Source: an uncultured Bacilli bacterium | GTDB lineage: Bacteria > Bacillota_I > Bacilli_A > RF39 > UBA660 | Direction: 5' to 3' | NCBI GenBank assembly: GCA_947624135.1 | Contig: CANQIV010000002.1 | Coordinates: 1-45,850, forward strand | DNA length: 45,850 nt | The notes under the pieces: model-generated | The model's input: the letters and a program-made list of their open reading frames with translations, nothing else | Databases searched by the model: none | What the model was told of the DNA's origin: nothing | Shown: piece after piece, positions 20,357 through 44,263 of the stretch | How positions within the stretch are numbered: the first letter of the stretch is position 1 | Layout: each line of letters starts with the position of its first letter | Translations under genes and position numbers: made by a program

Positions 20357-22414
20357 TTATTCATCTGCAAAGAAATCATCAAAAAATTCATCATCTGTAA
20401 TACCATTTTTAGTATTATTTTGACTTTCCTGATTATTTGGTTCAGGATTAATTATGTCTTTATTATCAATTTCTTCAATAGTTGTATGATTTTCTAATTT
20501 TTTATTAGCCTGTGCTTTAGCAGTTTCTTGTTTTTCTTCTTCTTCAATTTCTGCTATTTTTGCATCAATTCTTTTTATAATATCATCTACATTTAATCCC
20601 ATACCAGGATTCATTTGTGGTTTACTCATAAATGGATTAAATGGCATATCAGGCATTTTAGGTGGTATATCCCCATTTAACATTCCATTTATTTTTTCTT
20701 CTCTTTTTTTATTTACAAAACCTTTTATATCAAATGTTTTTACCTCTGTTTTATCTCTATGTGGATATTCAGCTTTAGGAAATTGATGTCCCCAATTCAT
20801 TTCAAAATTAGGAGTTAATTTTGTTTTAAAAGGCATTGTTCTAAGTCTTAATATTATTGTTTCCCATTGTTTTAATCTTTGTAAATCACTTACTGTAACA
20901 AGAGGTGTTGAAGAGGTTTTTTCTTTTTCTTTGGATTTAACCTCTCCACACATTTTACTTATTTCTTCAAGTGCGGAAAGTTCTGTACTTATTAAATAAA
21001 TAATATTACCACAGTTACCTTTTATTGTCTCTCCATTTTCTTTTCCATAAACTTCATATAATTGTGCGAAGTTTTGGATAATGAATGTAAATCTTATATT
21101 TCTTGAACGGGCTGCTGTTACCATTGTTGTTACGTCTTTTAAAGGAGGCATATTAGCAAATTCATCTAGTATAAAATTTGTTCTGTGTAAAAGTTTACCA
21201 TTTGATTCTTGCGCTACTGATATTAATGTTTCGTAACACTGCTTTAAAAAGATAGTAACAAGTGAGTGATATGTTCTTTTTTCATCTTGTATTACTATAA
21301 ATACTGCTGTCTTTTTTCTTCCTATATCACGCATATCAAAATCATTATTTGAAAGCATTTCTGATAAATTAGCTCTTGATGCGAATAACTGTATTTTTTG
21401 TTTAAATACTGATAAGATACTTCCTTTAGTTTCTGAAGGAGCCATCAAAGTAGAAGATGCTTTAGTGTATGCTGTACTTGCTGGATTTTTATAACTAAAA
21501 TAATCTTTTATATAAGTAGTATTGGCAAGTTTTTCTTCACCTACTGTTGTCATTAAACTGATACTATTTAAATTAATTTCATCTGGTGCGGCATCTTCAA
21601 AAAGAGCACATGCAAGTCCTGCAAAATAATCTGCTGATGTATTTTCCCAGAATGGATCTTGACCTTTTGCTGTTGGATCATGCAATATATTAGCGGCTAA
21701 ATCTTCAAGTAATTCTATAGATTTATCTATATTTCCAGCTTTATAAAGTGAATATGGTAAATACATAGGATTCCATGCATTACCTTGCTGTGGATCACGG
21801 AAATTAAGTAATACAATATTGTATCCTAAGCTTCTTAAATAATTAGATGTGTTTTCGTATATTTCACCTTTTGGGTCTGTAATTATCATTGATTCATCAT
21901 GTTTTGCAAGTAAATTAACCATAGGCAAAACTGTAGTTTGAGTTTTACCTGCACCAGTAGAACCTATTACAAGGTTATGATATCCACCATTATCTACCCA
22001 AACTTTTTTTGGAGTCATCATAAGTGGTATACCTGCTGCATCAGCTTTTGGAGAAAGAGGATCTACTGCTTTAACATCTAATCCATTTTGTATCTCACTT
22101 TCTTTAGCCCATCTTGAATAATTATTTTCTTTCTTTTCACCTATTATTAAACCTATACCTTTTTCATCTTTTTCTCTTTCAAATATTTTTGATTTAACTC
22201 CTAAAAACATAGCTATTAATCCTGCAAAAAACAAGACAAGAGTGGTTGCTAAATTCTTAGGCATAAAGGCTAAGAAAAAATTAATTGTAAATGGTTCATT
22301 ATTTATAAATGCAGAAACATTTACAACTGCTAAAGCTATAATTATTAGCCATGCAACTGAAAAAGCACAAAAAACTGACATATCTCTAGCATTTGCTCTA
22401 AATCTTAATTTCAT
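20357..22414 (-). CDS. Type IV coupling protein (VirD4/TraG/TcpA family)
   Basis: Two N-terminal TM segments, Walker A GSTGAGKT, DPKGE, and Walker B ILDEFAN. The C-terminal tail is acidic/aromatic (DDEFFDDFFADE). Confidence 0.88.
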   Translation of the reverse strand: MKLRFRANARDMSVFCAFSVAWLIIIALAVVNVSAFINNEPFTINFFLAFMPKNLATTLVLFFAGLIAMFLGVKSKIFEREKDEKGIGLIIGEKKENNYSRWAKESEIQNGLDVKAVDPLSPKADAAGIPLMMTPKKVWVDNGGYHNLVIGSTGAGKTQTTVLPMVNLLAKHDESMIITDPKGEIYENTSNYLRSLGYNIVLLNFRDPQQGNAWNPMYLPYSLYKAGNIDKSIELLEDLAANILHDPTAKGQDPFWENTSADYFAGLACALFEDAAPDEINLNSISLMTTVGEEKLANTTYIKDYFSYKNPASTAYTKASSTLMAPSETKGSILSVFKQKIQLFASRANLSEMLSNNDFDMRDIGRKKTAVFIVIQDEKRTYHSLVTIFLKQCYETLISVAQESNGKLLHRTNFILDEFANMPPLKDVTTMVTAARSRNIRFTFIIQNFAQLYEVYGKENGETIKGNCGNIIYLISTELSALEEISKMCGEVKSKEKEKTSSTPLVTVSDLQRLKQWETIILRLRTMPFKTKLTPNFEMNWGHQFPKAEYPHRDKTEVKTFDIKGFVNKKREEKINGMLNGDIPPKMPDMPFNPFMSKPQMNPGMGLNVDDIIKRIDAKIAEIEEEEKQETAKAQANKKLENHTTIEEIDNKDIINPEPNNQESQNNTKNGITDDEFFDDFFADE

Positions 22415-22422
22415 TATATCAC

Positions 22423-22908
22423 CTAAATTTCTATTGTAGTATCGTCTAAATAAACCTCATATTCCATAACACTAAATACTCTAAATATATAAAGATTATC
22501 TAGTTTATCATATACGTAATAACAAACCTCGTCTCCACAACTTTTCTTACCATATTTTGAAACAGTCATGTTTAATAAATTTATAGAATTTACATAATTT
22601 TTAAACGTTTCTATATTTGGATATTTAATATTTCTATATTCTTCATTGAGTAAATTATAAGCTTCATTTATATCATTCATAAGAAAATTTTTATAATCTG
22701 TTAAATATGCATTTGACATTTGTTCTTCGCTAGTACTAACTAAAGAATATTCATTAATGCCATATTTTTTTGGTGTTAAAACAAAATTTTCATCGGGTGT
22801 TAATATTTGTTGACGACCTTTATAGTATCTAACAAGTACTATAGCAAGTATTATAACAAATATTCCAATTGGTATTATAAGTAATTTATTTTCTTTTATT
22901 TCTTTCAT
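22423..22908 (-). CDS. Small N-terminally anchored protein, possible NTF2-like (VirB8/TcpC-type) T4SS component
   Basis: 161 aa with one TM. The segment AYNLLNEEYRNIKYPNIETFKNYV parallels the neighbouring gene. The fold assignment is inferred only. Confidence 0.5.
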   Translation of the reverse strand: MKEIKENKLLIIPIGIFVIILAIVLVRYYKGRQQILTPDENFVLTPKKYGINEYSLVSTSEEQMSNAYLTDYKNFLMNDINEAYNLLNEEYRNIKYPNIETFKNYVNSINLLNMTVSKYGKKSCGDEVCYYVYDKLDNLYIFRVFSVMEYEVYLDDTTIEI

Positions 22909-23414
22909 TTTTTATCACCAAACATTTCACCATCATAAGGCATTATTGAAAATGTTAAATTTGATTGATCCATAATGACTATAACATAATAAATTTGTTT
23001 TTCACTAGTTTGAAAAATTGTATTTGTCTGAATATATCCTTTTACATAATATTTATATACATTTTTTGATAATCTTTGCTCAAAAATTTTACGTGCATTA
23101 AAAGATATATCACCTTCAACATTACCAATATAATTATATATATTATCTTTTGTTATATTATTTTCTTTTTTATATGTTTCATCTAATAATAAATATAAAT
23201 TGTCATTATCTTTAGCTGATAAATATGTTAGATATTTATATACACAAGATGAAACTGTATAAAATCTATTATTATCTTTAACAACTGAAATAGTCTTTGT
23301 ATCTATTTTTTCTTCTTTAGGCTTACTAAAAAAGATTTTATATATACCAAGTATTAATAATATTATGACTAAAACAATAGCTAATATTTTTTTGTTTCTT
23401 TCTTCGTTATCCAT
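22905..23414 (-). CDS. Small N-terminally anchored protein, paralogue of 22423-22908
   Basis: 169 aa with one TM. The segment LYLLLDETYKKENNITKDNIYNYI parallels its neighbour. There is a 4-nt overlap with the next gene. Confidence 0.5.
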   Translation of the reverse strand: MDNEERNKKILAIVLVIILLILGIYKIFFSKPKEEKIDTKTISVVKDNNRFYTVSSCVYKYLTYLSAKDNDNLYLLLDETYKKENNITKDNIYNYIGNVEGDISFNARKIFEQRLSKNVYKYYVKGYIQTNTIFQTSEKQIYYVIVIMDQSNLTFSIMPYDGEMFGDKK

Positions 23415-23422
23415 ATTATCTC

Positions 23423-24847
23423 CTATAATCCAAACATATCATATCTAAATTCTATTTTTTGATTTAATTGATAAACTGTATAATCATTTTGTTCACAAAC
23501 TGTAGTTCTAGATTCTTCACTACAATTGTCATAATCAGTACATGATGGATTTGTAACGCAATAATTATCATCATTATATATATATTTTAATACACCACAT
23601 CCACCAAGTCCAGAACTACCTGGATTATATCTATAATCTCCTACCCAAGAATATACTGATTGCATACCTGCTAGTGTTCCAGGTAATCCATGCCCTGCAT
23701 CATCACAACCTGCATTATGTCTATCGTTATATCTTTGTGTAATCATAGAAGCAAGGCTTCCACCTTCATTATATTTTGAGAGTACCTCAGCATAAGCTGC
23801 TACTCCTTCTGACATACTTGAAAATGTTGGCCCATCACTACAAGTTTTTCCATTTGGTATATTTATTCCCCAATAATTTCCTGTATATGCACAAGGTATA
23901 AAACTTGATTCTGCCCTTGCAGTTACAACTACAAGTTCTGGATTTACATTATTTTCTACCGAAGCATCATATATTTCTTCTGCTTTTGATAAAAAATTAT
24001 TTTTAAAATTTTCATCATGTTTTCTATCATAATAATCTTGCATTTTTGCTACAAACTCTGCTTTTGATAAAGATGTTGTAGTTAGTGAAAATGAATCTGA
24101 AGATGCAGATGATGATGATAATGGTCTTGGATCATTAAAATCAATAAATGGTTCTGGATCTATTCTATCATCATTGACATTATATATTTCAAAATGTAGA
24201 TGGATTCCAAGTGAAAATCCACTATTTCCCATTTTACCTATAACTTGTCCTTGTTCAACAACATCGCCAGCCATTACTGTTATACTACCTTTAGCTAAAT
24301 GTGCATAATTTGTATAAGTACCATCAGCATGTTTAATTTTTACATGGTTTCCCCATCCACCAGCATCATTGGGATTTCCATTATCTTCAAAATTAATTTG
24401 AGAACTATCTGTTGGATAAACTACTACTCCGCTTTTAGAAGCTATTATATTTATCTCACCTACTACAGTTCCACCATCAATAGCAAAATCTATTCCTTTA
24501 TGTGGACTATCTCCTCTAAAGGCTTCTTGACTTTCAAAATGTGAAGATATAGATGACGCAGGTGGCATACCATCAGCATACAATTTTCCATTAACCTCTC
24601 TTGTTTCATTACTACCTATTGGTAACCAATATTTATTAGAATTAGTAGCAGGTTTTATTTTTACCTCTTCTACTTTTTCACCAGCTAAATCTTCATACTG
24701 TTCTTTCGCATCATATATTTCATTAATCAAATTTTCTATAGTTGACTCATTTTCTGAATTAATATATTCGTATGCATATATAATATTTTGATTAAAGTAA
24801 AATAATGTTAATAACACTATAACTAACTTACTTATTTTTTTTAACAT
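23423..24847 (-). CDS. Secreted bifunctional cell-wall hydrolase: M23 metallopeptidase plus a C-terminal lysozyme-like (SLT/GH73-type) domain
   Basis: Signal/anchor at the N-terminus. M23 motifs HKGIDF and GIHLHFE are present. The C-terminal part has TARAESSF...NYWGINIP, resembling the catalytic Glu region of muramidase/glucosaminidase domains. Confidence 0.8.
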   Translation of the reverse strand: MLKKISKLVIVLLTLFYFNQNIIYAYEYINSENESTIENLINEIYDAKEQYEDLAGEKVEEVKIKPATNSNKYWLPIGSNETREVNGKLYADGMPPASSISSHFESQEAFRGDSPHKGIDFAIDGGTVVGEINIIASKSGVVVYPTDSSQINFEDNGNPNDAGGWGNHVKIKHADGTYTNYAHLAKGSITVMAGDVVEQGQVIGKMGNSGFSLGIHLHFEIYNVNDDRIDPEPFIDFNDPRPLSSSSASSDSFSLTTTSLSKAEFVAKMQDYYDRKHDENFKNNFLSKAEEIYDASVENNVNPELVVVTARAESSFIPCAYTGNYWGINIPNGKTCSDGPTFSSMSEGVAAYAEVLSKYNEGGSLASMITQRYNDRHNAGCDDAGHGLPGTLAGMQSVYSWVGDYRYNPGSSGLGGCGVLKYIYNDDNYCVTNPSCTDYDNCSEESRTTVCEQNDYTVYQLNQKIEFRYDMFGL

Positions 24848-24863: not shown

Positions 24864-25520
24864 TCATATTTTATTATTTGCCTTATTTCTTTTATTTATA
24901 ACATACAATACTGATACAATAATAACTATTACTATTAAAACTAAAACAATTGTCATTTTACCATCAGTATTTATTTTTTCTTTATAAGAAAATTTAATAT
25001 TTTTATTACCATCTTTAGTTATATTCCATATATATGAATTACCTTTTTTTTCATCAGCATTGCTATCGATTACTTTATGATTAGTATTAATAACAACTCT
25101 AACATTATCTAAAAGTTCATAATATTCGTAACACTTAAAATCTTTTCCTGTTTCAACTGTTACTATTCCATTTTCTATTTCAATTTTAGGATTACTGTAA
25201 CATGTATTTAATCCACCTAAAACCTCTATTTCATCATTTTTTTTTGCAGAATTATACTCAATACCTAATGTATCACTCGTATTTATTTCTTTAATATTGT
25301 ATTTTGGTTCAGCAAATGGATCTTTATAATTAACTATGCTTTCAAATAATTCTCTTATTGTAGAACCACTTTCTAATTTTTTATCAAAAAGTGTAGGATT
25401 ATTTTCAACTAATTTTAAATTTTCTGTTATTTTATTATTTTTTATAGTAATTTCATAGTTAGCAGAACAGCCAGTTAAAAGAAATATACATATTATTATC
25501 AAAATTTTTTTAAATTTCAT
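24864..25520 (-). CDS. Lipoprotein with an additional C-terminal TM anchor (T4SS-associated)
   Basis: Lipobox in MKFKKILIIICIFLLTGCS and C-terminal MTIVLVLIVIVIIVSVLYVI. Start ATG 25520 has GAAGGA upstream. The ORF track start is 25544. Confidence 0.7.
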   Translation of the reverse strand: MKFKKILIIICIFLLTGCSANYEITIKNNKITENLKLVENNPTLFDKKLESGSTIRELFESIVNYKDPFAEPKYNIKEINTSDTLGIEYNSAKKNDEIEVLGGLNTCYSNPKIEIENGIVTVETGKDFKCYEYYELLDNVRVVINTNHKVIDSNADEKKGNSYIWNITKDGNKNIKFSYKEKINTDGKMTIVLVLIVIVIIVSVLYVINKRNKANNKI

Positions 25521-25521
25521 A

Positions 25522-30200: not shown

Positions 30201-30241
30201 CTAGTATCACACCCTTTTTATTTTTATTTTGAAAAATTTCA

Positions 30242-37236: not shown

Positions 37237-37262
37237 AGCAAACCTCCTTATTATCTATAACA

Positions 37263-37292
37263 ATTATAACAATTTGTAGGTCATTTTGTCAA
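37263..37292 (-). promoter_or_regulatory. Near-consensus sigma-A promoter for the pseudopilin/TadZ/pilin-like paralogue operon
   Basis: On the minus strand: TTGACA (37292..37287), an 18-nt spacer, then TGtTATAAT (-10 at 37268..37263). AAGGAGG follows. Confidence 0.6.
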
Positions 37293-37360
37293 TTAATTTT
37301 AGTATTTCAAACACATTATACATATTTTTTTACATTTAATTTATACTTTTATTATATTTA

Positions 37361-37388
37361 AACAAAAAAAGAGATTTATTATCTCTTT
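37361..37388 (-). terminator. Rho-independent terminator after the pilin gene
   Basis: On the minus strand: AAAGAGAT-AATAA-ATCTCTTT followed by TTTTGTTT. Confidence 0.75.
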
Positions 37389-37407
37389 ATAGGTTAATTA
37401 AATAATA

Positions 37408-37650
37408 TTATTTACACTCTGTACTAATCTGGTCTAGTCCTGTACAATTCTTCTTTTCACCATTGTCACCTATCTCACATGATGCATAACAATGACCATT
37501 ATTCCATACACCACCATTTGATGTACAACAAGAACTTTTTGAGGTATTACTCATCATATTTCTTACTATTACTGTACCTACCGCAAGTACTATAGCTATT
37601 AATACTATTGTTATTACTGTCATGTTTGCCTCTCCAGCTGCTTCTTTCAT
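37408..37650 (-). CDS. Small Cys-rich Flp/Tad-type pilin candidate
   Basis: 80 aa: MKEAAG / EANMTVITIVLIAIVLAVGTVIV, then a 45-residue tail with seven Cys (SSCCTSNGGVWNNGHCYASCEIGDNGEKKNCTGLDQISTEC). It lies immediately downstream of tadC. It has its own promoter, AAAGGAGGAG SD and terminator. Confidence 0.7.
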   Translation of the reverse strand: MKEAAGEANMTVITIVLIAIVLAVGTVIVRNMMSNTSKSSCCTSNGGVWNNGHCYASCEIGDNGEKKNCTGLDQISTECK

Positions 37651-37756: not shown

Positions 37757-38551
37757 TTATGCTACATTCATCATTAATGTCATTGATATAAATAGTACTA
37801 AAAGAACTCCACCGCCTGTTACAAATAACATCATAAGTGTTCTTTTTTCCATTGCTTCAAGACGATCTTTATATTTTTGTTCACGTGCTTTATTTTGAAG
37901 TTGTGAAACTGTTCTTGAAAACATCATTATTTGTTCATGTTTATCTTCATTTGATCCAAGTCCAACACGATATAAAAGTCTCATCATTCTCATTGAGTCT
38001 CTTACTGGATATTCATTAGCAAAGTCAACATATGGTTGTATAGTTGAATCACCTGCATCTATTTTAGCAGTTAATTCTCTAAGTCCAGATTGAAATATTT
38101 CTGGAGCTGTATCTATACTTTTTGAAATTGCTACTGGAACTGTATAGTGTTGAACTAATATTTCCAAACTCTTTAAATAATATGGAAGCATTGAATCCAT
38201 ATAATGTAATCTTGCTTTATAATAACTTTTTAAATTTGAATATCCACTTTTAAATATGATAAATCCTAAAATTATTACAAATAAGACGTACATATAACTA
38301 AATGAACCTGTAATTAGTAAGAAAAATATTCCAACTAATATAGTTATTACACCATTTCTTATTCTTGCTTCAAAAAGCTTATTTATGTCTAAATCTTGAT
38401 TTGGATATTTTACTCTAAGTAAAAATTCATAATCTTTTTCCATAAATTTTTTTAAAAATGGATTAACTCTTCTTATAAATGATTTTGCATCTAATATTTG
38501 GTTATAAACAAATATCAATATTACAGCAACTATTACTATTAAAAATTCCAT
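37757..38551 (-). CDS. tadC: Tad pilus platform protein TadC-like (T2SSF family)
   Basis: 264 aa. TM segments flank a cytoplasmic helical domain. It is the second of two consecutive T2SSF-like genes after the ATPase, with a 1-nt overlap with tadB. Confidence 0.75.
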   Translation of the reverse strand: MEFLIVIVAVILIFVYNQILDAKSFIRRVNPFLKKFMEKDYEFLLRVKYPNQDLDINKLFEARIRNGVITILVGIFFLLITGSFSYMYVLFVIILGFIIFKSGYSNLKSYYKARLHYMDSMLPYYLKSLEILVQHYTVPVAISKSIDTAPEIFQSGLRELTAKIDAGDSTIQPYVDFANEYPVRDSMRMMRLLYRVGLGSNEDKHEQIMMFSRTVSQLQNKAREQKYKDRLEAMEKRTLMMLFVTGGGVLLVLFISMTLMMNVA

Positions 38552-39450
38552 TATTCAGCCCCCACATTCTCATTATAAAATTTAGTACCTGCTATTAAAA
38601 AGGCAGAATTAATGATAACTATTATATGTAATAAAAGTTGACCATACCATAAAGTTAACATTTGGTGATAAGAATCTCCTAACATTATTTGAGCTAAACC
38701 TATCATTAGATACAAAACCAAACCGAATTGAACAAATTTTTTATAGAAAGCTGCTCTATCAATTCTATCTCTATAAACAGCCTCTACAAGCATATCTATG
38801 TCTAGTGACATGTTTTCAAGCGAATCACTAGCATCTTTAGAACCTTCATTAGTTATTTGAAGGAATAATTGATGCATATTTCTTACGATAAAATAATCGT
38901 ATTTTTCATTCATATAAGTTAGTGAATCATTTATTGTTCCGTTTTCATACGCCATATCTATCATTTGTTTTACATCTGATTTTACTGGATCTTCAAGTAC
39001 TCCTGATGAATATACACCTTCGAGTGCTTTTACGAAACTTTGTGTAGTAGCAAATTCCATTATAACGTTTGTAGTATATACTTGAATTTGTTCAAAAATA
39101 AATTCACTATAAATTCTTTTACATCTAAGGTAATTTATATATGGAACTACTGACGCTGCAGCAACTGCATATATAAGTGATATAATTAAGTTATAAAAGT
39201 ATAGATATGTTACAACTCCTCCACCAACAGCAAATAAAATGGTTTGTCCAATATATTGCGCCATTGTATAATCTTGCCCCATATCTTTAATTTTCTGACG
39301 TATTTCTTTATATGTATAAGGAGCAACTTTGCCATATACTTGCATGCTTTTTTTCTTTATAGAATTAGTTACATATTCGCCTAAACCACTCCTATAGATT
39401 ACTAAGAATACTATAAGAATTGCAACTATAATAAAAGCTATTTTATACAT
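38551..39450 (-). CDS. tadB: Tad pilus platform protein TadB-like (T2SSF family)
   Basis: 299 aa with an N-terminal TM, a helical cytoplasmic domain and C-terminal TM pairs. It lies directly downstream of the TadA-type ATPase. Confidence 0.75.
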   Translation of the reverse strand: MYKIAFIIVAILIVFLVIYRSGLGEYVTNSIKKKSMQVYGKVAPYTYKEIRQKIKDMGQDYTMAQYIGQTILFAVGGGVVTYLYFYNLIISLIYAVAAASVVPYINYLRCKRIYSEFIFEQIQVYTTNVIMEFATTQSFVKALEGVYSSGVLEDPVKSDVKQMIDMAYENGTINDSLTYMNEKYDYFIVRNMHQLFLQITNEGSKDASDSLENMSLDIDMLVEAVYRDRIDRAAFYKKFVQFGLVLYLMIGLAQIMLGDSYHQMLTLWYGQLLLHIIVIINSAFLIAGTKFYNENVGAE

Positions 39451-39452: not shown

Positions 39453-40688
39453 CTATACCTCCTCATCAAAAATTATTTCATTTCCTCCTACACTATTTAT
39501 AGGAACACTTTGTTGTTGTACCATTTGTTTAAATTGATCATTTACATTAACTTGAGGTGCTTGACTTGCTAAAATGTCTTCGTTACCTACTCTAGCATCA
39601 AAGCTTTCAGCACCCGTTTCAGAATTATATGCTTCATCATTTTTAATAAAGCCCTCTGGAAGTCTTACACCTTGTGCTTCTAAATAATCAATTAAATATT
39701 TACTAGGATTTTTCCTATATACATGTCCATCTGGAGTCTTTTTATAAATTACATTATATTTTGCTTCATTATCTTCTGTTACATAAAATTCAGTAATTTC
39801 TCCTATTTCCCTAACAAAACTATGTGTAACTTTACTCATAAAACCTCTTATATATACACCAATTTGAATATATCTATATATAGATTTTAAAAACTGTTCG
39901 ATATCTTGATTTGTTTCAAGTAAACTATACATACGATTAGGAATAGAAGATGCTTTATCAGCATGTATTGTAGATAAAATATAATGTCCTGAAGAAATTG
40001 AGTTTCTTACTGCCATAACTGCTTCAGCACTACGTACCTCTGATAATAATATCCATTTTGGATTTTGTCTCATACATGTTACAAGAACATCTGAATAACT
40101 TGCTATATTATTAGTTTTCATAGCAACTATATCTCTATTTGGATATATTTTATCTAAGTGAAGTTCTAGTGTATCTTCTATTGTTATTAACTTTTCATTT
40201 TCTATTGTATTTGAAGCCAAGAATTTAATAAATTCTGTCTTACCACTACCTGTCTCACCACAAGCAATTATGTTACAATGTCCATGAACACAAGTTATTA
40301 AGAAATTTAGCATTTCTTCAGTTATATATTTTTCATTTATTATTTTGTTTCTTTCAAGTCTTATCTTGGCTGGCGTTTTACGAATAACGCATGCAATACC
40401 ATTTCTAGCAATAGAGTCATGTATGAAATTCATACGAAGTTCAGAACTTTCACTATCCAAAAATGGATGTGCTGCATTAAAACTTTTTCCCATTACGTTA
40501 GAGCACTGGAAAGCAAGTTTTTCCATAAAACTATTATTAACTGCAGGGTTTTCAACCCTAAAAATCCCCTTTGACAAAGTTTTTAACCATAATTGACCAT
40601 TATTGCTATAAGAAATATCGGTAATATCATCATTGTCTAAATATTCTTTTAATGGACCAAAGTCCATTCCCTCAAAAACGTTATCCAT
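39453..40688 (-). CDS. tadA: TadA/CpaF-type secretion ATPase (T2SSE/VirB11 superfamily)
   Basis: Walker A GETGSGKT, Asp box ITIEDTLEL, Walker B ILLSEVR and His box ILSTIHA. Confidence 0.88.
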   Translation of the reverse strand: MDNVFEGMDFGPLKEYLDNDDITDISYSNNGQLWLKTLSKGIFRVENPAVNNSFMEKLAFQCSNVMGKSFNAAHPFLDSESSELRMNFIHDSIARNGIACVIRKTPAKIRLERNKIINEKYITEEMLNFLITCVHGHCNIIACGETGSGKTEFIKFLASNTIENEKLITIEDTLELHLDKIYPNRDIVAMKTNNIASYSDVLVTCMRQNPKWILLSEVRSAEAVMAVRNSISSGHYILSTIHADKASSIPNRMYSLLETNQDIEQFLKSIYRYIQIGVYIRGFMSKVTHSFVREIGEITEFYVTEDNEAKYNVIYKKTPDGHVYRKNPSKYLIDYLEAQGVRLPEGFIKNDEAYNSETGAESFDARVGNEDILASQAPQVNVNDQFKQMVQQQSVPINSVGGNEIIFDEEV

Positions 40689-41551
40689 TATTGATTTGGA
40701 GTAACTGTTTTATCATCAGTTGTAGTTGTATTATCTGTAGTATCTGTAGTATTATCGTCTATTTCTTCCTGAATAGCATCTTCCTCAATTGTAGTTGTTA
40801 GGGCGTCAATATAATCTCTTAAAGTTGCGCTTGTTACGATTATATAATTTTCTGTTGGAACAGTTGTTCCTCTTGGCGCTAAAATAAGTTCTACGTTATT
40901 TAAGTATTCTGTTTTCTTTAATAGTATATACATATCTTGTCTAGCAGCAAATCCTATTTTAGCTGGAGTTAATACCTCATCAGTATCTCCAAATACATCA
41001 TCACCATTACTATCGTGTACTGCAAGAACTTTAATGTTCTTCATAAGTTTACCAAATAGTATAGCTCCATTTTCATCTGTTGCTTTCATATATATATCTA
41101 CATATGAATCTGGAAGAACGTTATTTCCTAATGTACTTTCAACAGTAACGTCCATGTAATAACCATATTCACCATTTTTTACATCCAATTTTTCAATCCA
41201 ATTTCCTGGAACATCTTTTTCATCTACTAACCATTCACTATAAAATAAGCTTCCCTCTGGAATTGTTACATTTATATTTGTATATTTACCTATTATAGCA
41301 TTTGAAGCACGTAAAGCATTCTCACTTATCATACTACCTGGTATTTGTTTATAAACAACATCTTCTCCAGTTATTTCAGTTTTTGGATTAATCTTTTGTG
41401 CTGCAGTTGGCATATTAACTGGACTAGTTTCTCTTTTTATACTTGATGTATATCCCCAATATAACACAATCAATATTACTATTACAAGAATAACAGTAAC
41501 AACATTTTTATTAGTAAAGAATTTTTTTAAACCTATAACAAAATTATTCAT
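40688..41551 (-). CDS. cpaB: Flp pilus assembly protein CpaB/RcpC-like (SAF domain)
   Basis: N-terminal TM, then a SAF-like segment (ITGEDVVYKQIPGSMISENAL...IIGKYTNINVTIPEGSLF). An RcpC-like segment follows (LPDSYVDIYMKA...IKVLAVHD), then an acidic Thr/Asp-rich tail. Confidence 0.75.
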   Translation of the reverse strand: MNNFVIGLKKFFTNKNVVTVILVIVILIVLYWGYTSSIKRETSPVNMPTAAQKINPKTEITGEDVVYKQIPGSMISENALRASNAIIGKYTNINVTIPEGSLFYSEWLVDEKDVPGNWIEKLDVKNGEYGYYMDVTVESTLGNNVLPDSYVDIYMKATDENGAILFGKLMKNIKVLAVHDSNGDDVFGDTDEVLTPAKIGFAARQDMYILLKKTEYLNNVELILAPRGTTVPTENYIIVTSATLRDYIDALTTTIEEDAIQEEIDDNTTDTTDNTTTTDDKTVTPNQ

Positions 41552-41564
41552 TTTTTATCTCCTC

Positions 41565-41975
41565 TCAATATTCTGTTTCTAATATTGCATCTATATTATT
41601 TACAATATTAAAGTCTATTACTTCACCTGTAGAAGTATTTGATTTAGCGCTTGATACTCTCAAACTTACCTTAGGTGGAGTTTCTGTGATATCGTATATT
41701 TCTATTTTATATTCATTTGATAAATCTGCACTTTCAGCAAATCTACGAATAAAATTTTCAAGAAATTTTTGATCTTCTATTCTAACAGTTCCATCTTTTC
41801 TATAAGCTGCTAAATCTACTGCATCATACATAGATGCTTCAACAGCTTCTTTAAGTAAATTATAATTATGCTGATCAGTATTAGTAGAGGTTGATAAAAA
41901 CCATATAATTCCTATCGCAAGTACTCCTAATACTATGACTGCATACCCCCATATAGATTCTCTCAAAAATATCAC
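41565..41975 (-). CDS. TadE-like / pseudopilin-like protein
   Basis: The track start is GTG 41975. TTG at 41966, preceded by AGGTGG 9 nt upstream, would give MRESIWG/YAVIVLGVLAI, closely matching the MNESIG/Y leader at 36772-37236. Confidence 0.55.
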   Translation of the reverse strand: MIFLRESIWGYAVIVLGVLAIGIIWFLSTSTNTDQHNYNLLKEAVEASMYDAVDLAAYRKDGTVRIEDQKFLENFIRRFAESADLSNEYKIEIYDITETPPKVSLRVSSAKSNTSTGEVIDFNIVNNIDAILETEY

Positions 41976-42007
41976 CCACCTAACATATAGTGCCTACTAT
42001 TAATTTA

Positions 42008-42036: not shown

Positions 42037-42044
42037 CATTTTTT

Positions 42045-42698
42045 TTAAAATTTAAATCTTTCTTTCTTCCTTTTTATATATATTACCAATCCACAAGCTA
42101 TTATTATAAACGGTAATATTAAATAATAATATTTTACATAAAAACTAATTATATAATCAAATAAAGATCTAGTATCTGTTTCTTCTGTTTTCTCTGGTTT
42201 TGTATCCTCTTTGTTTGATGCATTAATATAATCCATAAATTCTTTATAAGTAATTTTCGATTTTACCCATTTTTTACAAACGTCATAATCATTATCTGCG
42301 CAAAGTGGATCACCATAAAATTCATTATATATAGGAAAGTTATAATATTTTGTACCATATAATATTCTTTCACATCCACTTATCGTAGAATAAAATTTAT
42401 AACTACCTGAGTTTGTCGTATATCCTCTTATAGTAATTTCTCCATTATTAGTATCTTGATAAGTATAAACATTACTTGTTACACTATCTTTAAATGACAT
42501 TTCCGGTGTTATATTAACTAAAGTAACATCAAACACAATACGATCATTTTCATATCGATAGTCGTATGTTATATTTACATTGGTTACTAGTGATTTTAAT
42601 CTAGATACTGTAGAATAATCACACCCTGCATAAGTAAGTGCGAATACTCCTTTTATAGAAATAAATAACATACATATCAAAAATAATATCTTTTTCAT
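42045..42698 (-). CDS. Secreted Cys-containing protein with a C-terminal TM anchor, unknown function
   Basis: 217 aa with signal peptide MKKILFLICMLFISIKGVFA. The mature N-terminus LTYAGCDY resembles the mature N-termini of P1 (LTCTY) and P2 (TYYCAY). C-terminal anchor is LILPFIIIACGLVIYI. Confidence 0.65.
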   Translation of the reverse strand: MKKILFLICMLFISIKGVFALTYAGCDYSTVSRLKSLVTNVNITYDYRYENDRIVFDVTLVNITPEMSFKDSVTSNVYTYQDTNNGEITIRGYTTNSGSYKFYSTISGCERILYGTKYYNFPIYNEFYGDPLCADNDYDVCKKWVKSKITYKEFMDYINASNKEDTKPEKTEETDTRSLFDYIISFYVKYYYLILPFIIIACGLVIYIKRKKERFKF

Positions 42699-44263
42699 AT
42701 TTCACCTTTTAGTATATATTCTTTTGTTTTTGATCTTATATTAAATACAATTTTAATTTCACTAGCGTTATAAATATCAGAATTTATTCCTATATATATA
42801 TTATCTTTATCATTAGATTTATTACTTTTTATTTCTTCAAAATCACTATTTTGGCTATACCAATTATCACCTATTTTATATTTTATCTCACCAAATTTAG
42901 ATAACAAACTATAAAAAGAATTCATATTTAATTTATCGGTTCCATCGTATTTTATTTTTAATCTAAGAACATATTTATCAAAATCAGTATTCAATGTTCC
43001 TTTTAAATATTCTTTAGATAAAACACAATCATCTTTTTTTATACAATAATTATATTCTACTAAAAATCTATCTCTTATTTCATATTCATCTATTGTAAAC
43101 TTAATATCTTGCAATTCTTCTAGTGTAAGTTCTTCTCCTATATTAAATGTATTTGTTTCTCCTTTTGTTTCTATTTTTTCGGGTGTAAGTTTTATATCAA
43201 AGTTTTGTCCTTGATTAGAATATCTAAAAAACATTTTTTTATCTATATAATTACTTGGTATTTCAAAGACAAATAAGTAATCTTTAAGTTCATTAGATAA
43301 ATCTTGATTTTTATATACGCTTCCTAAATCAAGTAAGTATTGATTATAATTATCTAAAGGCTTAAATATTAAGTTATTTATTATAAGTGAAAAATCTTTT
43401 ATATATAAATCATGTGGATAAATAGCTTTTAATCTAGTATCTACAACTAATAAATAGTTGTCAGTAATTTTATTGCCTTTAAAATCTGTATTTACAATCA
43501 TACTTTTATTTACTTGATAATTAAAACCATTTACTTGATACATTACGTTTTCTTTATTTACTCTATTTTTTTTAACTGTTAAAAATATAGTTGTAACAAT
43601 TATTATTATAGAAAGTAAGCCTATTAAACAATTGTAAATAAATTTATTTTCATAATATATATATTTTAGTTGTCTTATTATATTTTTTCTTTTTCTTCTT
43701 GATTCATCAAAATCTACATTTATATTTAATTCAAATTCTTCTCTATCACTTTCTGTTATATTTATATCTGATATGTCAGAATCAAAATCAAATTTTTTTA
43801 TGTTAATTCCAATACCACGTATTATAAGTATTATTACTATTATTATTTCTATTATTACATTTATCATTACGATATCATGTATTAATTTAGCCGCTTTTAT
43901 TGTTACTATGTTTTTTTCAAGTATTTTCAAAAAATTAAATGTATAAATATTTATTACTATGACTGCTAAAAGTGAGAATGTTGATACTACATAAAACGCA
44001 GAAGGTTTCTTTTTTCTTATCATTATTCCTAAAATTATTATAAATAGTATTATTAATATGACAGGAATTATTATTAATAAGTTATTACCAAATGTATTTA
44101 CTAAATTCATTCCAATTGTATTTAAATTTGTATTTATGTATTCATTTAAAAATGATAATATCCTATTTTGAAGCACTAATAAGATTATTGTTAAAAATGC
44201 CATTAATAAATGAAGCGGTTTAAATACTTTTATAAAAAATGCATATGGTTTTCTAAGTATCAT
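42695..44263 (-). CDS. Polytopic membrane protein with a large C-terminal extracytoplasmic domain, unknown function
   Basis: 522 aa. About 4 TM segments occupy the first 160 aa, followed by a charged linker, a further TM and a ~290-aa beta-rich-looking domain. SD is AGGAGA. It is the first gene of the locus. Confidence 0.65.
   Translation of the reverse strand: MILRKPYAFFIKVFKPLHLLMAFLTIILLVLQNRILSFLNEYINTNLNTIGMNLVNTFGNNLLIIIPVILIILFIIILGIMIRKKKPSAFYVVSTFSLLAVIVINIYTFNFLKILEKNIVTIKAAKLIHDIVMINVIIEIIIVIILIIRGIGINIKKFDFDSDISDINITESDREEFELNINVDFDESRRKRKNIIRQLKYIYYENKFIYNCLIGLLSIIIIVTTIFLTVKKNRVNKENVMYQVNGFNYQVNKSMIVNTDFKGNKITDNYLLVVDTRLKAIYPHDLYIKDFSLIINNLIFKPLDNYNQYLLDLGSVYKNQDLSNELKDYLFVFEIPSNYIDKKMFFRYSNQGQNFDIKLTPEKIETKGETNTFNIGEELTLEELQDIKFTIDEYEIRDRFLVEYNYCIKKDDCVLSKEYLKGTLNTDFDKYVLRLKIKYDGTDKLNMNSFYSLLSKFGEIKYKIGDNWYSQNSDFEEIKSNKSNDKDNIYIGINSDIYNASEIKIVFNIRSKTKEYILKGEI

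What the first reader, a model, noticed from the sequence alone, without database searches (positions are those of the whole stretch)
20357..44263. Tad (type IVc) pilus module and a Gram-positive-type T4SS module fused into one ~24-kb co-oriented chromosomal locus
Seen directly: 27 consecutive minus-strand genes with intergenic gaps of at most 171 nt and many 1-4-nt overlaps.

The upstream half carries the Tad signature set:
- TadA ATPase with all four motor boxes
- two T2SSF platform proteins
- a CpaB/SAF protein
- a small pilin
- three TadE-like proteins
- a TadZ-like ParA-fold protein

The downstream half carries the minimal Gram-positive conjugation-type T4SS set:
- a VirB6-like channel protein
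- a TcpE/PrgI (VirB3-like) protein
- VirB4
- cell-wall hydrolases
- small anchored proteins
- the VirD4 coupling protein

The junction is occupied by four paralogous proteins with VirB2-like topology and a surface protein.

Established knowledge: Firmicute MPF-type T4SSs are generally described as pilus-less and relying on adhesins. A type IVb thin pilus assisting a T4SS is known from IncI1 plasmid R64. Tad machines have been co-opted for transformation (Micrococcus luteus) and contact-dependent killing (Myxococcus Kil).

Inference: the fusion suggests one coordinated cell-contact and transfer (or uptake, or killing) apparatus that I do not recognise as a described system.
Basis: partly seen in the sequence, partly recalled or inferred. 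Interest (0 to 1): 0.85.

Follow-up and report, generated by a model that had tools for sequence, protein, structure and literature searches.

The report
Chromosomal Tad-like plus T4SS transfer machine
A 24-kb gene cluster that pairs a Tad-like filament machine with a Gram-positive-type type IV secretion system is real and sits at the same chromosomal site in the 80 related uncultured gut Bacilli species examined (VirB4 relatives in at least 481), but the same two-module design already exists, largely unrecognised, on known Bacillus and Enterococcus conjugative plasmids, so it is a chromosomally fixed variant with no relaxase nearby rather than a new kind of machine.

Summary
There are 26 solid co-oriented genes (a 27th ORF is doubtful), and the largest gap is 171 nt.

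The T4SS half is well supported: VirD4, a three-way split VirB3 / TrsD-like / VirB4, a VirB6-like protein, an M23 hydrolase and an array of VirB2-like pilins (PF18895).

The "Tad" half is highly divergent. Only the ATPase and, weakly, CpaB are seen by sequence. Structure and profile tests support two paralogous GspF-like platform proteins, and four pilin-like families share one leader motif. TadZ is only a fold-level guess.

The whole arrangement sits at the same chromosomal site (scpAB | locus | rhodanese-RmuC-RNase R) in every one of 80 related species with enough flank. Its divergence tracks that of the flanking genes. No relaxase or integrase was found.

It is not an unknown fusion. Plasmids pBMB67 (B. 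thuringiensis), pBS72 (pLS20 family) and pZB18 (E. faecium) carry homologous modules in the same order together with MobP relaxases. There the ATPase is simply called VirB11.

The closest chromosomal analogue is the relaxase-less Patescibacteria T4SS with VirB2-like arrays.

Verdict: a new variant of a known kind. Interest 0.55.

The parts
42695..44263 (-). First gene, 522 aa: polytopic N-terminal membrane region plus a large extracytoplasmic C-terminal domain; function unknown
   Evidence: No Pfam/NCBIfam hit. Conserved as the first gene next to the divergent scpA in L001-L003 (53% identity). A large protein occupies the same position in pBMB67 and L092.
42045..42698 (-). 217-aa protein with a signal peptide and a C-terminal anchor; function unknown
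   Evidence: No family hit. 50% identical in L003.
41565..41975 (-). DUF5411 protein, pseudopilin-like (leader ...RESIWG then a hydrophobic helix)
   Evidence: PF17424, 1.8e-49. Leader shared with Flp-like/E1/E2. Same position in L087, L092 and (weakly) pZB18.
40688..41551 (-). CpaB/RcpC-like SAF-domain protein with an N-terminal anchor
   Evidence: TIGR03177, 9.5e-8, below cutoff. 33% identical to the L085 homologue that carries PF16976 RcpC and to the pBMB67 SAF protein.
39453..40688 (-). T2SSE-superfamily ATPase (CpaF/TadA/VirB11-like); motor of the filament module
   Evidence: PF00437, 3.2e-25. VirB11 1e-30 and TadA-conjugal 7e-24, all below cutoffs. 76-90% identical among the 120 best-scoring homologues, all from metagenomes/MAGs. 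25-33% identical to plasmid 'CpaF/VirB11 family' proteins.
38551..39450 (-). TadB-like platform protein (GspF-like cytoplasmic domain flanked by TM helices)
   Evidence: No T2SSF Pfam hit. AF2 pLDDT 83. Foldseek top compact hits are EpsF 2vmb (prob .98, TM .66) and OutF 5nbg (TM .70). hhalign to the pBS72 neighbour of VirB11 97.9%, and to the pZB18 one 93.8%.
37757..38551 (-). TadC-like second platform paralogue
   Evidence: hhalign against the TadB-like profile: probability 96.6%, E 5.8e-10, 148 columns covering the GspF-like domain.
37408..37650 (-). Flp-sized pilin (80 aa): invariant leader MKEAAG|EANMTV, a hydrophobic helix and a variable Cys-rich tail
   Evidence: Alignment of 29 orthologues. 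No Pfam hit. No G/XXXXEY motif.
37263..37388 (-). AT-rich hairpin plus U-run (37388-37361), then a perfect sigma-70 consensus (37292-37263); a local feature only
   Evidence: Not conserved: hairpin in 5 and promoter-like site in 10 of 56 related loci, where the median gap is 25 nt.
36772..37236 (-). Pseudopilin-like E1 (leader MNESIG|Y..., a hydrophobic helix, then the ...IE+YEG motif)
   Evidence: N-terminal conservation across species. No Pfam TadE hit.
36331..36759 (-). Pseudopilin-like E2, a paralogue of E1
   Evidence: No family hit.
35323..36315 (-). TadZ-like candidate: N-terminal alpha/beta domain, disordered linker, C-terminal SIMIBI-fold domain with a degenerate Walker A
   Evidence: AF2 pLDDT 65.5. 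Foldseek hits FlhF, HypB, MinD, ParF and ParA, 48 hits at E<=1e-3. No sequence-level support. 40% identical in the remote locus L085, where it directly precedes VirB6.
34866..35312 (-). VirB2-like T4SS pilin paralogue A
   Evidence: Family: 38/100 members hit PF18895 and 1 hits PF04956. TM-loop(KEDEIKKGQQ)-TM plus CxxCF.
34516..34869 (-). VirB2-like T4SS pilin paralogue B
   Evidence: PF18895, 3.7e-3.
33946..34512 (-). VirB2-like T4SS pilin paralogue C, with a Cys-rich N-terminal extension
   Evidence: PF18895, 7.4e-4.
32815..33939 (-). 374-aa N-terminally anchored surface protein (putative adhesin), variably present
   Evidence: No family hit. Present in 35 of 80 loci.
32370..32756 (-). VirB2-like T4SS pilin paralogue D, directly upstream of VirB6-like; perfect sigma-70 consensus at 32809-32780
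   Evidence: PF18895, 1.5e-3. pBMB67 has a 2-TM ORF in the same position.
30242..32272 (-). VirB6/TrbL-like polytopic channel protein with a long Gly/Ala/Gln-rich tail
   Evidence: NF045889 Mbov_0396, 9.6e-12. PF19597 TrbL_4, 9e-6. The L003 orthologue carries TrbL_4.
29880..30200 (-). VirB3/PrgI/TcpE-like small membrane protein
   Evidence: 18/38 orthologues hit PrgI (best 8e-5), 10 hit TcpE and 2 hit VirB3.
29363..29905 (-). TrsD-like protein, i.e. a free-standing VirB4 N-terminal domain
   Evidence: Matches positions 102-276 of NF045975 VirB4_plasma, 9e-14. A separate ORF in all 80 species. 27% identical to the ORF upstream of pBMB67 virB4. TrsD concept from PMC12102498.
27579..29366 (-). 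VirB4 ATPase (C-terminal motor part)
   Evidence: NF045975 345 bits; NF045971 175 bits; PF19044. At least 80% identical in 80 species; relatives in 481 species.
25522..27558 (-). 678-aa protein: low-complexity N-terminus, one TM, large extracytoplasmic part with a Cys/His-containing C-terminal domain (putative wall hydrolase; inferred)
   Evidence: No Pfam/NCBIfam/PDB hit. Lies in the variable region.
24864..25544 (-). 226-aa lipoprotein-like protein with a C-terminal anchor
   Evidence: Lipobox-like N-terminus. Poorly conserved.
23423..24847 (-). Secreted M23 peptidoglycan endopeptidase with an extra C-terminal domain (VirB1-type role)
   Evidence: PF01551, 4e-23. PDB M23 hits.
22423..23414 (-). 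Two small N-terminally anchored proteins (169 and 161 aa), VirB8-like by position and size only
   Evidence: No family hit. Found only in the closer relatives. Fold not tested.
20357..22414 (-). VirD4 coupling protein, CD1115 family, with an acidic C-terminal tail
   Evidence: NF045973, 294 bits, above the cutoff of 250. PF02534, 3e-56. Last gene of the locus in all species.
19988..20010 (-). Intrinsic terminator after the rhodanese gene; the first convincing terminator downstream of the locus
   Evidence: 10-bp stem plus T-run.
16438..17493 (-). Extra VirB2-like pilin fused to a large Cys-rich ectodomain, outside the locus
   Evidence: PF18895, 1.5e-3. Aligned with the locus paralogues.
9407..10714 (-). 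Second extra VirB2-like pilin fusion outside the locus
   Evidence: Shares TM-loop-TM and CxxCF with the locus paralogues.

Best explanation
The locus encodes one composite cell-envelope machine. It is a chromosomally fixed derivative of the monoderm conjugation apparatus found on pXO2/pAW63/pBMB67-, pLS20- and pZB18-type plasmids, and it has no relaxase nearby.

Proposed mechanism (inferred):
1. A CpaF/VirB11-family ATPase docks on two paralogous GspF-like platform proteins.
2. This motor polymerises a short filament from an 80-aa Flp-like pilin and three pseudopilin-like proteins that share one leader motif. A CpaB/SAF protein and a SIMIBI-fold positioning protein assist.
3. Beside it, a minimal Gram-positive T4SS forms the translocation channel: VirB6-like, VirB3-like, TrsD-like plus VirB4, wall hydrolases and VirD4.
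4. An array of VirB2-like pilins decorates or extends the channel.
5. The filament makes or stabilises contact with another cell.
6. The VirD4-coupled channel then moves a macromolecule (DNA or protein) out of the cell into that partner.

In this lineage of small-genome gut Bacilli the machine is inherited vertically as a core trait rather than as a mobile element.

Shown: the parts list, the homology to plasmid systems, the fixed chromosomal site, the co-divergence and the absence of a nearby relaxase. Inferred: that a filament is assembled, that the two modules work together, and the direction and nature of the substrate.
For: Family assignments.

Filament module:
- GspF-like fold of the TadB-like protein.
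- TadB/TadC paralogy.
- One shared leader on four pilin-like families.
- SIMIBI fold of the TadZ-like protein.

Conservation:
- Identical gene order and identical chromosomal neighbours in all 80 species loci with enough flank; VirB4 relatives in 481 species.
- VirB4 (median 82%) and the ATPase (77%) are at least as conserved as flanking RmuC (76%) and scpA (70%).
- Identity of locus genes correlates with RmuC (rho .58-.77), and the two modules correlate with each other (rho about .7).

Remote lineages keep the modules adjacent:
- L085: RcpC-TadB-TadC-TadZ followed by a VirB6-like gene.
- L091: RcpC-ATPase-TadB-TadC-pilin-T4SS_pilin-TrbL.

Plasmid homologues with the same order, as identity / E-value against pBMB67:
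- VirD4 30% / 2e-57
- VirB4 29% / 2e-81
- TrsD-like 27% / 9e-13
- SAF 33% / 4e-21
- ATPase 25% / 2e-33
- TadB-like 20% / 3e-7
- hhalign of the TadB-like profile to the pBS72 protein: 97.9%

No relaxase or integrase. No internal terminator; in most species the genes are contiguous.
Against: - No prepilin peptidase is in the window or flanks, and the pilin lacks the Flp G/XXXXEY motif. Filament assembly is therefore unproven.
- TadB/C and TadZ have no sequence-level link to T2SSF or ParA families.
- The Foldseek E-values for GspF are weak (1.1 and 2.4), and the TadZ model has moderate confidence.
- VirB8-like proteins were not verified.
- Only about 10 kb on each side was inspected, so a relaxase elsewhere in these genomes cannot be excluded.
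- The region between VirB4 and VirD4 varies a lot between species.
- All related genomes are MAGs. No expression or phenotype data exist.
Confidence: 0.6

Rival explanations
1. Patescibacteria-like lifestyle machine. The T4SS with its VirB2-like pilin array (plus the filament module) has been repurposed. It is a near-essential conduit for acquiring molecules from, or attaching to, other gut microbes or host cells, compensating for the reduced metabolism of these 1.5-1.9 Mb genomes. It no longer transfers DNA.
For: - The locus is chromosomal, with no relaxase nearby, at a fixed site, and extremely conserved.
- It has the same part set and order as the Southlakia T4SS: a VirB2-like array (PF18895), VirB6, PrgI, TrsD, VirB4, then peptidase/lysozyme genes (PMC12102498, PMC12857230).
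- The pilin number and ectodomain fusions vary as in Patescibacteria arrays.
- The lineage has small genomes and amino-acid auxotrophies (PMC7301438).
Against: - VirD4 is the conserved last gene of the locus here. In Patescibacteria the T4CP is usually unlinked and is not essential (PMC12102498). A coupling protein points to export of a recruited substrate.
- There is no evidence that these Bacilli are epibionts.
- No VirB4 phylogeny was done, so a specific relationship to the Patescibacteria clade is untested.
Confidence: 0.25
2. Ordinary integrative conjugative element, or a decaying remnant of one, sitting at an insertion hot spot, with its relaxase and integrase lying outside the inspected region.
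For: - All recognisable parts are homologous to plasmid/ICE conjugation genes.
- The nearest NCBIfam models are Mycoplasma ICE families.
- One relative has an unrelated PcfJ/PcfK element next to scpB, so the area can accept insertions.
Against: - Both flanks are the same housekeeping genes in every species locus with enough flank.
- Divergence of the locus tracks the flanking genes.
- The motor genes are more conserved than their housekeeping neighbours.
- No integrase, relaxase, replication or partition genes lie within 10 kb in 80 species.
- All ORFs are intact and there is no composition break.
Confidence: 0.07
3. Two functionally independent systems that merely stay adjacent: an adhesive Tad-like pilus for gut colonisation, and a separate T4SS.
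For: - L087 shows the Tad-like module followed by a giant adhesin fused to a pseudopilin-like N-terminus, with no T4SS gene in view.
- L092 shows the module followed by WxL surface proteins.
- Tad pili are known colonisation factors in Bifidobacterium (cited in PMC5696575).
Against: - The adjacency is kept in 80 species, in remote lineages and on three plasmid families.
- In L085 the TadZ-like gene directly abuts VirB6, and in pBS72 the platform gene directly abuts VirB6.
- The pseudopilin, TadZ-like and VirB2-like genes are interleaved between the two motors with gaps of a few nucleotides.
Confidence: 0.08

Closest known systems
Transfer regions of Bacillus cereus-group plasmids of the pBMB67 / pAW63 / pXO2 type
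   Same: - Both modules are present, co-oriented, and have the same internal order.
- Filament module: large protein, DUF5411-like, SAF/CpaB, (AAA ATPase), T2SSE ATPase, TadB-like, a second membrane protein, a small pilin, then DUF4320-type pseudopilins.
- T4SS module: VirD4(CD1115), a 2-TM VirB2-like ORF, TrbL/VirB6, PrgI/VirB3, TrsD-like, VirB4.
- Six proteins are homologous at BLAST level; L092 has the same layout.
   Different: - They are on plasmids with a MobP3 relaxase, partition and replication genes.
- The modules are about 8 kb apart.
- VirD4 is at the start of the T4SS module, not the end.
- There is a single VirB2-like gene, not an array.
- Identity is only 20-33%.
- The literature names only VirB4, VirB11 and VirD4 (PMC9673590).
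pLS20-family (pBS72) and enterococcal pZB18 conjugation operons
   Same: - A CpaF/VirB11 ATPase is followed by a TadB-like membrane protein (hhalign 97.9% and 93.8%).
- VirD4 CD1115 family, a VirB6-like protein, a VirB3-like DUF5592 protein and VirB4 are present.
- pZB18 also has a true TrbC/VirB2, a weak DUF5411 protein, and small pilin- and pseudopilin-like ORFs.
- pLS20 genes 36-41 have the matching sizes and topologies (PMC8557374).
   Different: - They are plasmid-borne with a MobP2 relaxase.
- No CpaB or TadZ-like gene is evident.
- A second platform paralogue is not detectable.
- The pLS20 family is described as lacking pilus components.
Chromosomal T4SS of Patescibacteria (Ca. Southlakia epibionticum type)
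   Same: - Monoderm MPF_FATA-type T4SS on the chromosome without a relaxase.
- An array of divergent VirB2-like pilins (PF18895) next to VirB6, PrgI, TrsD and VirB4, followed by peptidase/lysozyme genes.
- Found in small-genome, metabolically dependent organisms (PMC12102498, PMC12857230).
   Different: - No Tad-like module adjoins the Patescibacteria T4SS; their T4P is a separate locus.
- Their T4CP is usually unlinked and dispensable.
- Essentiality is shown there and unknown here.
- The phylogenetic relation of the VirB4s was not tested.
Mycoplasma ICE conjugation core (Mbov_0396 / Mbov_0397 families; CDS16, CDS17, CDS5)
   Same: These are the best NCBIfam matches for VirB4 (345 bits), its N-domain and the VirB6-like protein. 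Both belong to related host lineages within Bacilli/Mollicutes. Neither has a canonical relaxase nearby.
   Different: - Scores are below the equivalog cutoffs (590 and 70 bits).
- Mycoplasma ICEs are mobile (DDE transposase).
- They have fused VirB3-VirB4-type proteins and lack hydrolases, VirB8 and any Tad-like module (PMC12857230).
T4SS assisted by a type IV pilus (IncI1 R64 thin pilus; PAPI-1) and tad-carrying Cutibacterium acnes plasmids
   Same: The functional logic is the same: a type IV filament machine encoded with a T4SS to make donor-recipient contact. C. acnes plasmids combine a tad locus with VirB4/TcpC genes, and Flp pili were seen by EM (PMC12857230, PMC5696575).
   Different: - R64 and PAPI-1 are diderm systems with type IVb pili and are not homologous in detail.
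- C. acnes has a canonical Tad locus (G/SSTVET pilin motif) on a linear plasmid.

Membership tests
Tad (type IVc) pilus system | T2SSE-family assembly ATPase of the TadA/CpaF subfamily | tested here: inconclusive
   Superfamily membership is clear (PF00437, 3e-25). The subfamily is unresolved: VirB11 1e-30, TadA-conjugal 7e-24, TrbB 8e-24, FlaI 9e-23, all far below the curated cutoffs.
Tad (type IVc) pilus system | Two separate platform proteins (TadB, TadC), each matching the T2SSF domain (PF00482) | tested here: not met
   No PF00482 hit for either protein, for 28 orthologues at E<=10, or for 10 remote relatives. No PDB sequence hit.
Tad (type IVc) pilus system | Two paralogous platform proteins with a GspF-like cytoplasmic helical domain (fold level) | tested here: met
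   AF2 pLDDT 83. The best compact Foldseek hits are EpsF 2vmb (prob .98, TM .66, rmsd 3.4) and OutF 5nbg (TM .70). TadB-like against TadC-like by hhalign: 96.6%, E 5.8e-10.
Tad (type IVc) pilus system | Flp pilin with the G/XXXXEY processing motif | tested here: not met
   The 80-aa protein has an invariant MKEAAG|EANMTVITIV and no E5-Y6.
Tad (type IVc) pilus system | TadE/TadF pseudopilins (PF07811) sharing the pilin's leader | tested here: inconclusive
   No PF07811 hit. E1, E2 and DUF5411 do share a [KR]-E-[SA]-x-G leader plus a hydrophobic helix with the pilin.
Tad (type IVc) pilus system | TadZ/CpaE ParA-type localisation ATPase | tested here: inconclusive
   Moderate-confidence model (pLDDT 65.5) with a SIMIBI fold: FlhF 7.7e-6, MinD, ParF, ParA. 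Walker A is degenerate. No sequence-level signal.
Tad (type IVc) pilus system | CpaB/RcpC protein | tested here: met
   TIGR03177, 9.5e-8, below cutoff. 33% identical to homologues that carry PF16976 RcpC or are annotated SAF.
Tad (type IVc) pilus system | Dedicated prepilin peptidase (TadV/CpaA, peptidase A24) | not testable with these tools
   None in the window or in the Pfam-annotated flanks of L001-L003.
Monoderm (MPF_FATA-type) conjugative T4SS | VirB4 ATPase | tested here: met
   NF045975 345 bits, NF045971 175 bits, PF19044. It is split from its TrsD-like N-domain.
Monoderm (MPF_FATA-type) conjugative T4SS | VirD4-type coupling protein | tested here: met
   NF045973 CD1115 family, 294 bits, above the cutoff of 250. 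PF02534, 3e-56.
Monoderm (MPF_FATA-type) conjugative T4SS | VirB6-like, VirB3-like and VirB1-like components | tested here: met
   - VirB6-like: Mbov_0396 1e-11 and TrbL_4.
- VirB3-like: PrgI/TcpE/VirB3 in 18/10/2 of 38 orthologues.
- VirB1-like: M23 hydrolase.
Monoderm (MPF_FATA-type) conjugative T4SS | VirB8-like (NTF2-fold) component | not tested
   The two small anchored proteins at 22423-23414 are candidates by size and position only.
Conjugative element (ICE or plasmid) | Relaxase (MOB) and oriT linked to the T4SS | tested here: not met
   No relaxase family among the locus proteins or in the annotated flanks. No MobP2/MobP3 homologue in 1.72 Mb of window plus 91 loci. Other MOB classes elsewhere in the genomes were not examined.
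Conjugative element (ICE or plasmid) | Integrase/excision functions, and variable presence or insertion site | tested here: not met
   No integrase found. The locus has the same housekeeping flanks in all species loci with enough flank and co-diverges with RmuC.
Patescibacteria-type chromosomal T4SS | Chromosomal MPF_FATA-like T4SS without a relaxase, with an array of PF18895 VirB2-like pilins plus TrsD, PrgI and VirB6 | tested here: met
   Definition from PMC12102498.
Patescibacteria-type chromosomal T4SS | VirB4 falls in the monophyletic Patescibacteria clade | not tested

The most novel reading that the evidence does not exclude
The locus is the Bacilli counterpart, and possibly the ancestral or donor form, of the essential Patescibacteria T4SS. 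It would be a lineage-defining, near-essential contact machine in which a Tad-like filament and a piliated monoderm T4SS together tap other cells. That would imply that the abundant RF39/RFN20-type gut 'Tenericutes-like' Bacilli live as contact-dependent symbionts or parasites of other microbes. It would also mean that the 'VirB11' of Gram-positive conjugative plasmids is really the motor of an unrecognised mating filament.
Probability: 0.15. Interest if true: 0.85.

Novelty: new variant of a known kind. Interest (0 to 1): 0.55.

Why it matters
1. A major, uncultured, human- and animal-associated gut lineage keeps a full T4SS plus filament machine as a core chromosomal trait. Outside Patescibacteria, such domesticated monoderm T4SSs are essentially undescribed. 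A December 2025 review calls the Patescibacteria system unique among monoderms for its potential pili. This locus suggests that feature is broader.

2. The comparison exposes an overlooked Tad-like sub-module (ATPase, platform proteins, small pilin, pseudopilins, SAF protein) and VirB2-like genes in well-known Gram-positive conjugative plasmids: the pLS20 family, pBMB67/pAW63/pXO2 type, and pZB18. These plasmids are genetically tractable, so the question 'what does the VirB11-linked module do in Gram-positive conjugation?' can be tested directly. Its results would transfer to the uncultured lineage.

3. It gives a concrete hypothesis for how small-genome gut Bacilli interact with neighbouring cells.

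Tried and rejected
- **Platform and TadZ profiles against PDB sequences.** The TadB-, TadC- and TadZ-like families found nothing useful.
- **Permissive Pfam scans.** 28 TadB-like orthologues, 10 remote relatives and 37 TadZ-like members gave no T2SSF, ParA or AAA_31 signal.
- **First TadB/TadC comparison.** Shallow alignments gave no paralogy. The result became significant only with deeper alignments.
- **Second platform candidates in pBS72 and pZB18.** Neither could be linked to TadC-like or TadB-like.
- **pBMB67 AAA ATPase.** It could not be linked to the TadZ-like protein.
- **678-aa protein.** No PDB match.
- **Hairpin plus perfect promoter after the pilin gene.** It looked like a pilin-stoichiometry device but is not conserved: 5 and 10 of 56 loci. 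I dropped it as a general feature.
- **Promoter-like sites overall.** They do not exceed chance.
- **SpoIIIA/SpoIIQ-like sporulation channel (ATPase plus M23).** Considered and rejected, because VirB4, VirD4, VirB6 and VirB3 are unambiguous.
- **ComB-like DNA-uptake T4SS.** Considered unlikely because a VirD4 coupling protein is conserved in the locus. This is an inference from the known lack of a T4CP in ComB systems.
- **Literature searches.** Searches for DUF5411, RF39/RFN20 with secretion terms, and Tad with VirB4 in Gram-positives found no description of this locus.

Full report
**1. Observation**

The window has very low GC, about 25%. Between 20357 and 44263 every substantial ORF is on the minus strand.

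I count 26 solid genes. The 27th ORF (30154-30393) overlaps both neighbours and is nearly unconserved. The largest gap is 171 nt (37237-37407), and seven junctions overlap by 1-26 nt.

The flanks are housekeeping genes. On one side are rhodanese, RmuC, a membrane protein, RNase R and SmpB. On the other are the divergent scpA and scpB.

**2. The T4SS half**

| Coordinates | Assignment | Evidence |
|---|---|---|
| 20357-22414 | VirD4, CD1115 family | 294 bits, cutoff 250; PF02534 3e-56 |
| 27579-29366 | VirB4 motor part | Mbov_0397 family 345 bits; CD1110 family 175 bits |
| 29363-29905 | Free-standing VirB4 N-domain | positions 102-276 of the same model, 9e-14 |
| 29880-30200 | VirB3-like | PrgI in 18, TcpE in 10, VirB3 in 2 of 38 orthologues |
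| 30242-32272 | VirB6/TrbL-like | Mbov_0396 family 1e-11; TrbL_4 |
| 23423-24847 | M23 wall hydrolase | |

The three-ORF split of VirB3, the N-domain and VirB4 is present in all 80 related species. It is therefore an architecture, not a pseudogene. It corresponds to the TrsD component of the pGO1-type MPF_FATA subclass (PMC12102498).

The four 'junction' paralogues share several features: a signal or anchor, then TM1, a KEDEIKKGQQ loop, TM2 and a C-terminal CxxCF. Of 100 family members taken from related loci, 38 hit Pfam T4SS_pilin (PF18895; best 3.6e-7) and one hits TrbC/VirB2. They are VirB2-like pilins.

Two further copies lie outside the locus, at 9407-10714 and 16438-17493. Both are fused to large Cys-rich ectodomains.

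The 678-aa protein, the lipoprotein and the two small anchored proteins remain unassigned.

**3. The 'Tad' half**

Sequence methods recognise only three parts:
- the ATPase (PF00437, 3e-25; its subfamily is unresolved between VirB11, TadA, TrbB and FlaI)
- a weak CpaB (TIGR03177, 9.5e-8)
- DUF5411 (1.8e-49)

That holds even at permissive thresholds across orthologues and remote relatives.

*Platform proteins.* A scan of 1.84 billion representative proteins found only 184 clusters for the TadB-like protein. An AlphaFold model built on the diverse members is confident (pLDDT 83, pTM 0.73).

Its only compact, low-rmsd Foldseek matches are the cytoplasmic domains of the T2SS platform proteins EpsF (2vmb: prob 0.98, TM 0.66, rmsd 3.4 Å) and OutF (5nbg: TM 0.70). 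Their E-values are weak.

With deeper alignments, the TadB-like and TadC-like families are paralogues over exactly that domain (hhalign 96.6%, E 5.8e-10). This reproduces the split-platform arrangement typical of Tad systems.

*Pilin-like proteins.* The 80-aa protein has an invariant MKEAAG|EANMTV N-terminus, then a hydrophobic helix and a variable Cys-rich tail. E1, E2 and the DUF5411 protein carry the same [KR]-E-[SA]-x-G leader before a hydrophobic helix. That makes four pilin-like families with one leader motif. It is not the Flp G/XXXXEY motif, and no prepilin peptidase is in view.

*TadZ-like protein.* The model has moderate confidence (pLDDT 65.5). It shows an N-terminal α/β domain, a disordered linker and a C-terminal domain that matches SIMIBI NTPases: FlhF, HypB, MinD, ParF and ParA, with 48 hits at E ≤ 1e-3. 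Walker A is degenerate and there is no sequence-level support.

Overall, 'Tad-like type IV filament module' is justified. Strict Tad membership is not.

**4. Distribution**

The ATPase's 120 best-scoring homologues are all 76-100% identical; they come from metagenomes and MAGs, and the two that carry a name are labelled 'Bacilli bacterium' and 'bacterium'.

A scan of species-representative genomes with VirB4 found relatives in 481 species. The best 80 are at least 80% identical. They come from gut MAGs labelled Bacilli, Tenericutes, Mollicutes or Erysipelotrichaceae, and include Acholeplasma sp. CAG:878 and Ca. Fimihabitans.

These are the small-genome RF39/RFN20-type lineages (PMC7301438, PMC10868615). 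I could not fix the exact GTDB order.

In every locus with enough flank the order is the same:
- the Tad-like module
- 1-6 VirB2-like genes, with or without the surface protein
- VirB6, VirB3, TrsD and VirB4
- a variable hydrolase region
- VirD4

The neighbours are the same as well.

Median identities to the window are:

| Gene | Median identity |
|---|---|
| VirB4 | 82% |
| TrsD-like | 77% |
| ATPase | 77% |
| VirD4 | 65% |
| RmuC (flank) | 76% |
| scpA (flank) | 70% |

Identity of locus genes correlates with RmuC (ρ 0.58-0.77), and the two modules correlate with each other (ρ about 0.7). This is a crude proxy, but it is what vertical co-inheritance would give.

No integrase or relaxase appears in the locus or the annotated flanks. 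The MobP2 and MobP3 relaxases of the homologous plasmids have no counterpart in 1.72 Mb of related sequence.

**5. More distant relatives**

Remote TadB-like homologues (24-34% identity) keep the module:
- **L085:** RcpC (clear Pfam hit), TadB, TadC, TadZ-like (40% identical), then directly a VirB6-like protein.
- **L091:** probably a mobile element (SSB and an ArdC-like gene). Its order is RcpC, ATPase, TadB, TadC, small pilin, T4SS_pilin, TrbL_4 and onward.
- **L087 and L092:** these show the module followed by adhesin-type genes instead.

**6. The decisive comparison**

tblastn against plasmids showed 'CpaF/VirB11 family' ATPases on Gram-positive conjugative plasmids.

*pBMB67* (B. thuringiensis; MobP3 relaxase) has two co-oriented modules:
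- relaxase, VirD4(CD1115), a 2-TM VirB2-like ORF, TrbL, PrgI, a TrsD-like ORF and VirB4
- about 8 kb further on: a large protein, a DUF5411-sized protein, a SAF protein, an AAA ATPase, a T2SSE ATPase, 305-aa and 244-aa membrane proteins, an 89-aa protein and DUF4320

Six of its proteins are homologous to the window's at BLAST level.

*pBS72* (pLS20 family) and *pZB18* (E. faecium) have a TadB-like protein next to the ATPase (hhalign 97.9% and 93.8%). pZB18 also has a bona fide TrbC/VirB2 (PF04956, 2.5e-14) and a weak DUF5411 protein.

The pLS20-family paper lists genes 36-41 with matching sizes and topologies. It calls them 'putative VirB11' plus unknowns, and states that the family lacks pilus components (PMC8557374).

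C. acnes plasmids combining a tad locus with VirB4/TcpC genes are also published (PMC5696575).

So the two-module design is an existing, under-annotated feature of monoderm conjugation systems. It is not a novel fusion.

**7. What is new**

Three things are new:
- The machine is fixed in the chromosome of a large lineage, without mobility genes.
- It carries a VirB2-like pilin array. According to recent literature, that is otherwise known in monoderms only from the chromosomal, relaxase-less and essential T4SS of Patescibacteria (PMC12102498, PMC12857230).
- It adds second-platform, CpaB and TadZ-like parts.

The lineage papers do not mention any such system.

**8. Mechanism and confidence**

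I commit to a single composite contact-and-translocation machine. The filament module makes or stabilises contact, and the VirD4-coupled T4SS exports a macromolecule. It is inherited as a core trait. Confidence is 0.6.

The conserved VirD4 favours export of a recruited substrate. Whether that substrate is DNA or protein is open.

The main functional rival is a Patescibacteria-like acquisition or attachment role (0.25). An ordinary ICE (0.07) and two independent systems (0.08) are disfavoured by the synteny and co-divergence data.

**9. Transcription**

No convincing terminator lies inside the locus; the first is after the rhodanese gene. The window has a hairpin plus a perfect promoter after the pilin gene. 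This is not conserved: in most species the genes are contiguous.

Noticed in passing
window 9407-10714 and 16438-17493: Two further VirB2-like pilin genes lie 3-10 kb outside the locus among housekeeping genes. Each is fused to a large Cys-rich N-terminal ectodomain. Related species also scatter such copies, for example between VirD4 and rhodanese in L039 and L055.
   Followed up: partly
window 29363-30200 and 27579-29366: VirB3-like, the VirB4 N-domain (TrsD-like) and the VirB4 motor are three separate overlapping ORFs in all 80 species. The nearest NCBIfam model (Mycoplasma ICE VirB4) is a single 894-aa protein covering all three.
   Followed up: yes
It overlaps both neighbours in other frames and is essentially unconserved, so it is probably spurious.
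   Followed up: yes
window 37263-37388: There is an AT-rich hairpin with a U-run right after the small pilin gene, then a perfect TTGACA-18-TATAAT with a TG extension. It is present only in close relatives; the median gap elsewhere is 25 nt.
   Followed up: yes
window 37408-37650 and the pilin paralogues: The extracellular tails of the Flp-like pilin (2-6 Cys) and of the VirB2-like proteins (conserved CxxCF) are Cys-rich. This suggests disulfide- or metal-stabilised surface structures in an anaerobic gut organism.
   Followed up: no
L090 (pZB18) 23479-23757; L094 (pBMB67) 17649-18029: Known Gram-positive conjugative plasmids encode a bona fide TrbC/VirB2 (PF04956, 2.5e-14) or a 2-TM VirB2-like ORF just before VirB6. 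Reviews state that Gram-positive T4SSs lack VirB2.
   Followed up: partly
L087 12535-16449: In a remote lineage the Tad-like module ends with a pseudopilin-like N-terminus fused to an adhesin of more than 1300 aa made of many GYTF-x-GWY-type repeats. It looks like a tip adhesin.
   Followed up: no
L002 1-4693: One close relative has an element with PcfJ, PcfK and DnaB_C genes inserted just beyond scpB. The neighbourhood can therefore receive mobile DNA even though the T4SS locus itself is fixed.
   Followed up: no
L010, L032, L053, L067, L068, L076, L077: These loci, with the same Bacilli-type locus and flanks, come from MAGs labelled Bacteroidaceae or Muribaculaceae. These are probably binning or labelling errors in the public records.
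   Followed up: no
window 12767-13671 and 1045-2355: yabP-like, yabQ-like and spoVG-like genes and murC are present. The organism probably has a peptidoglycan wall and at least remnants of a sporulation programme, which fits the walled RF39-type rather than the wall-less families.
   Followed up: no
window 45767-45847: A tRNA gene is the only Rfam hit in the window.
   Followed up: no
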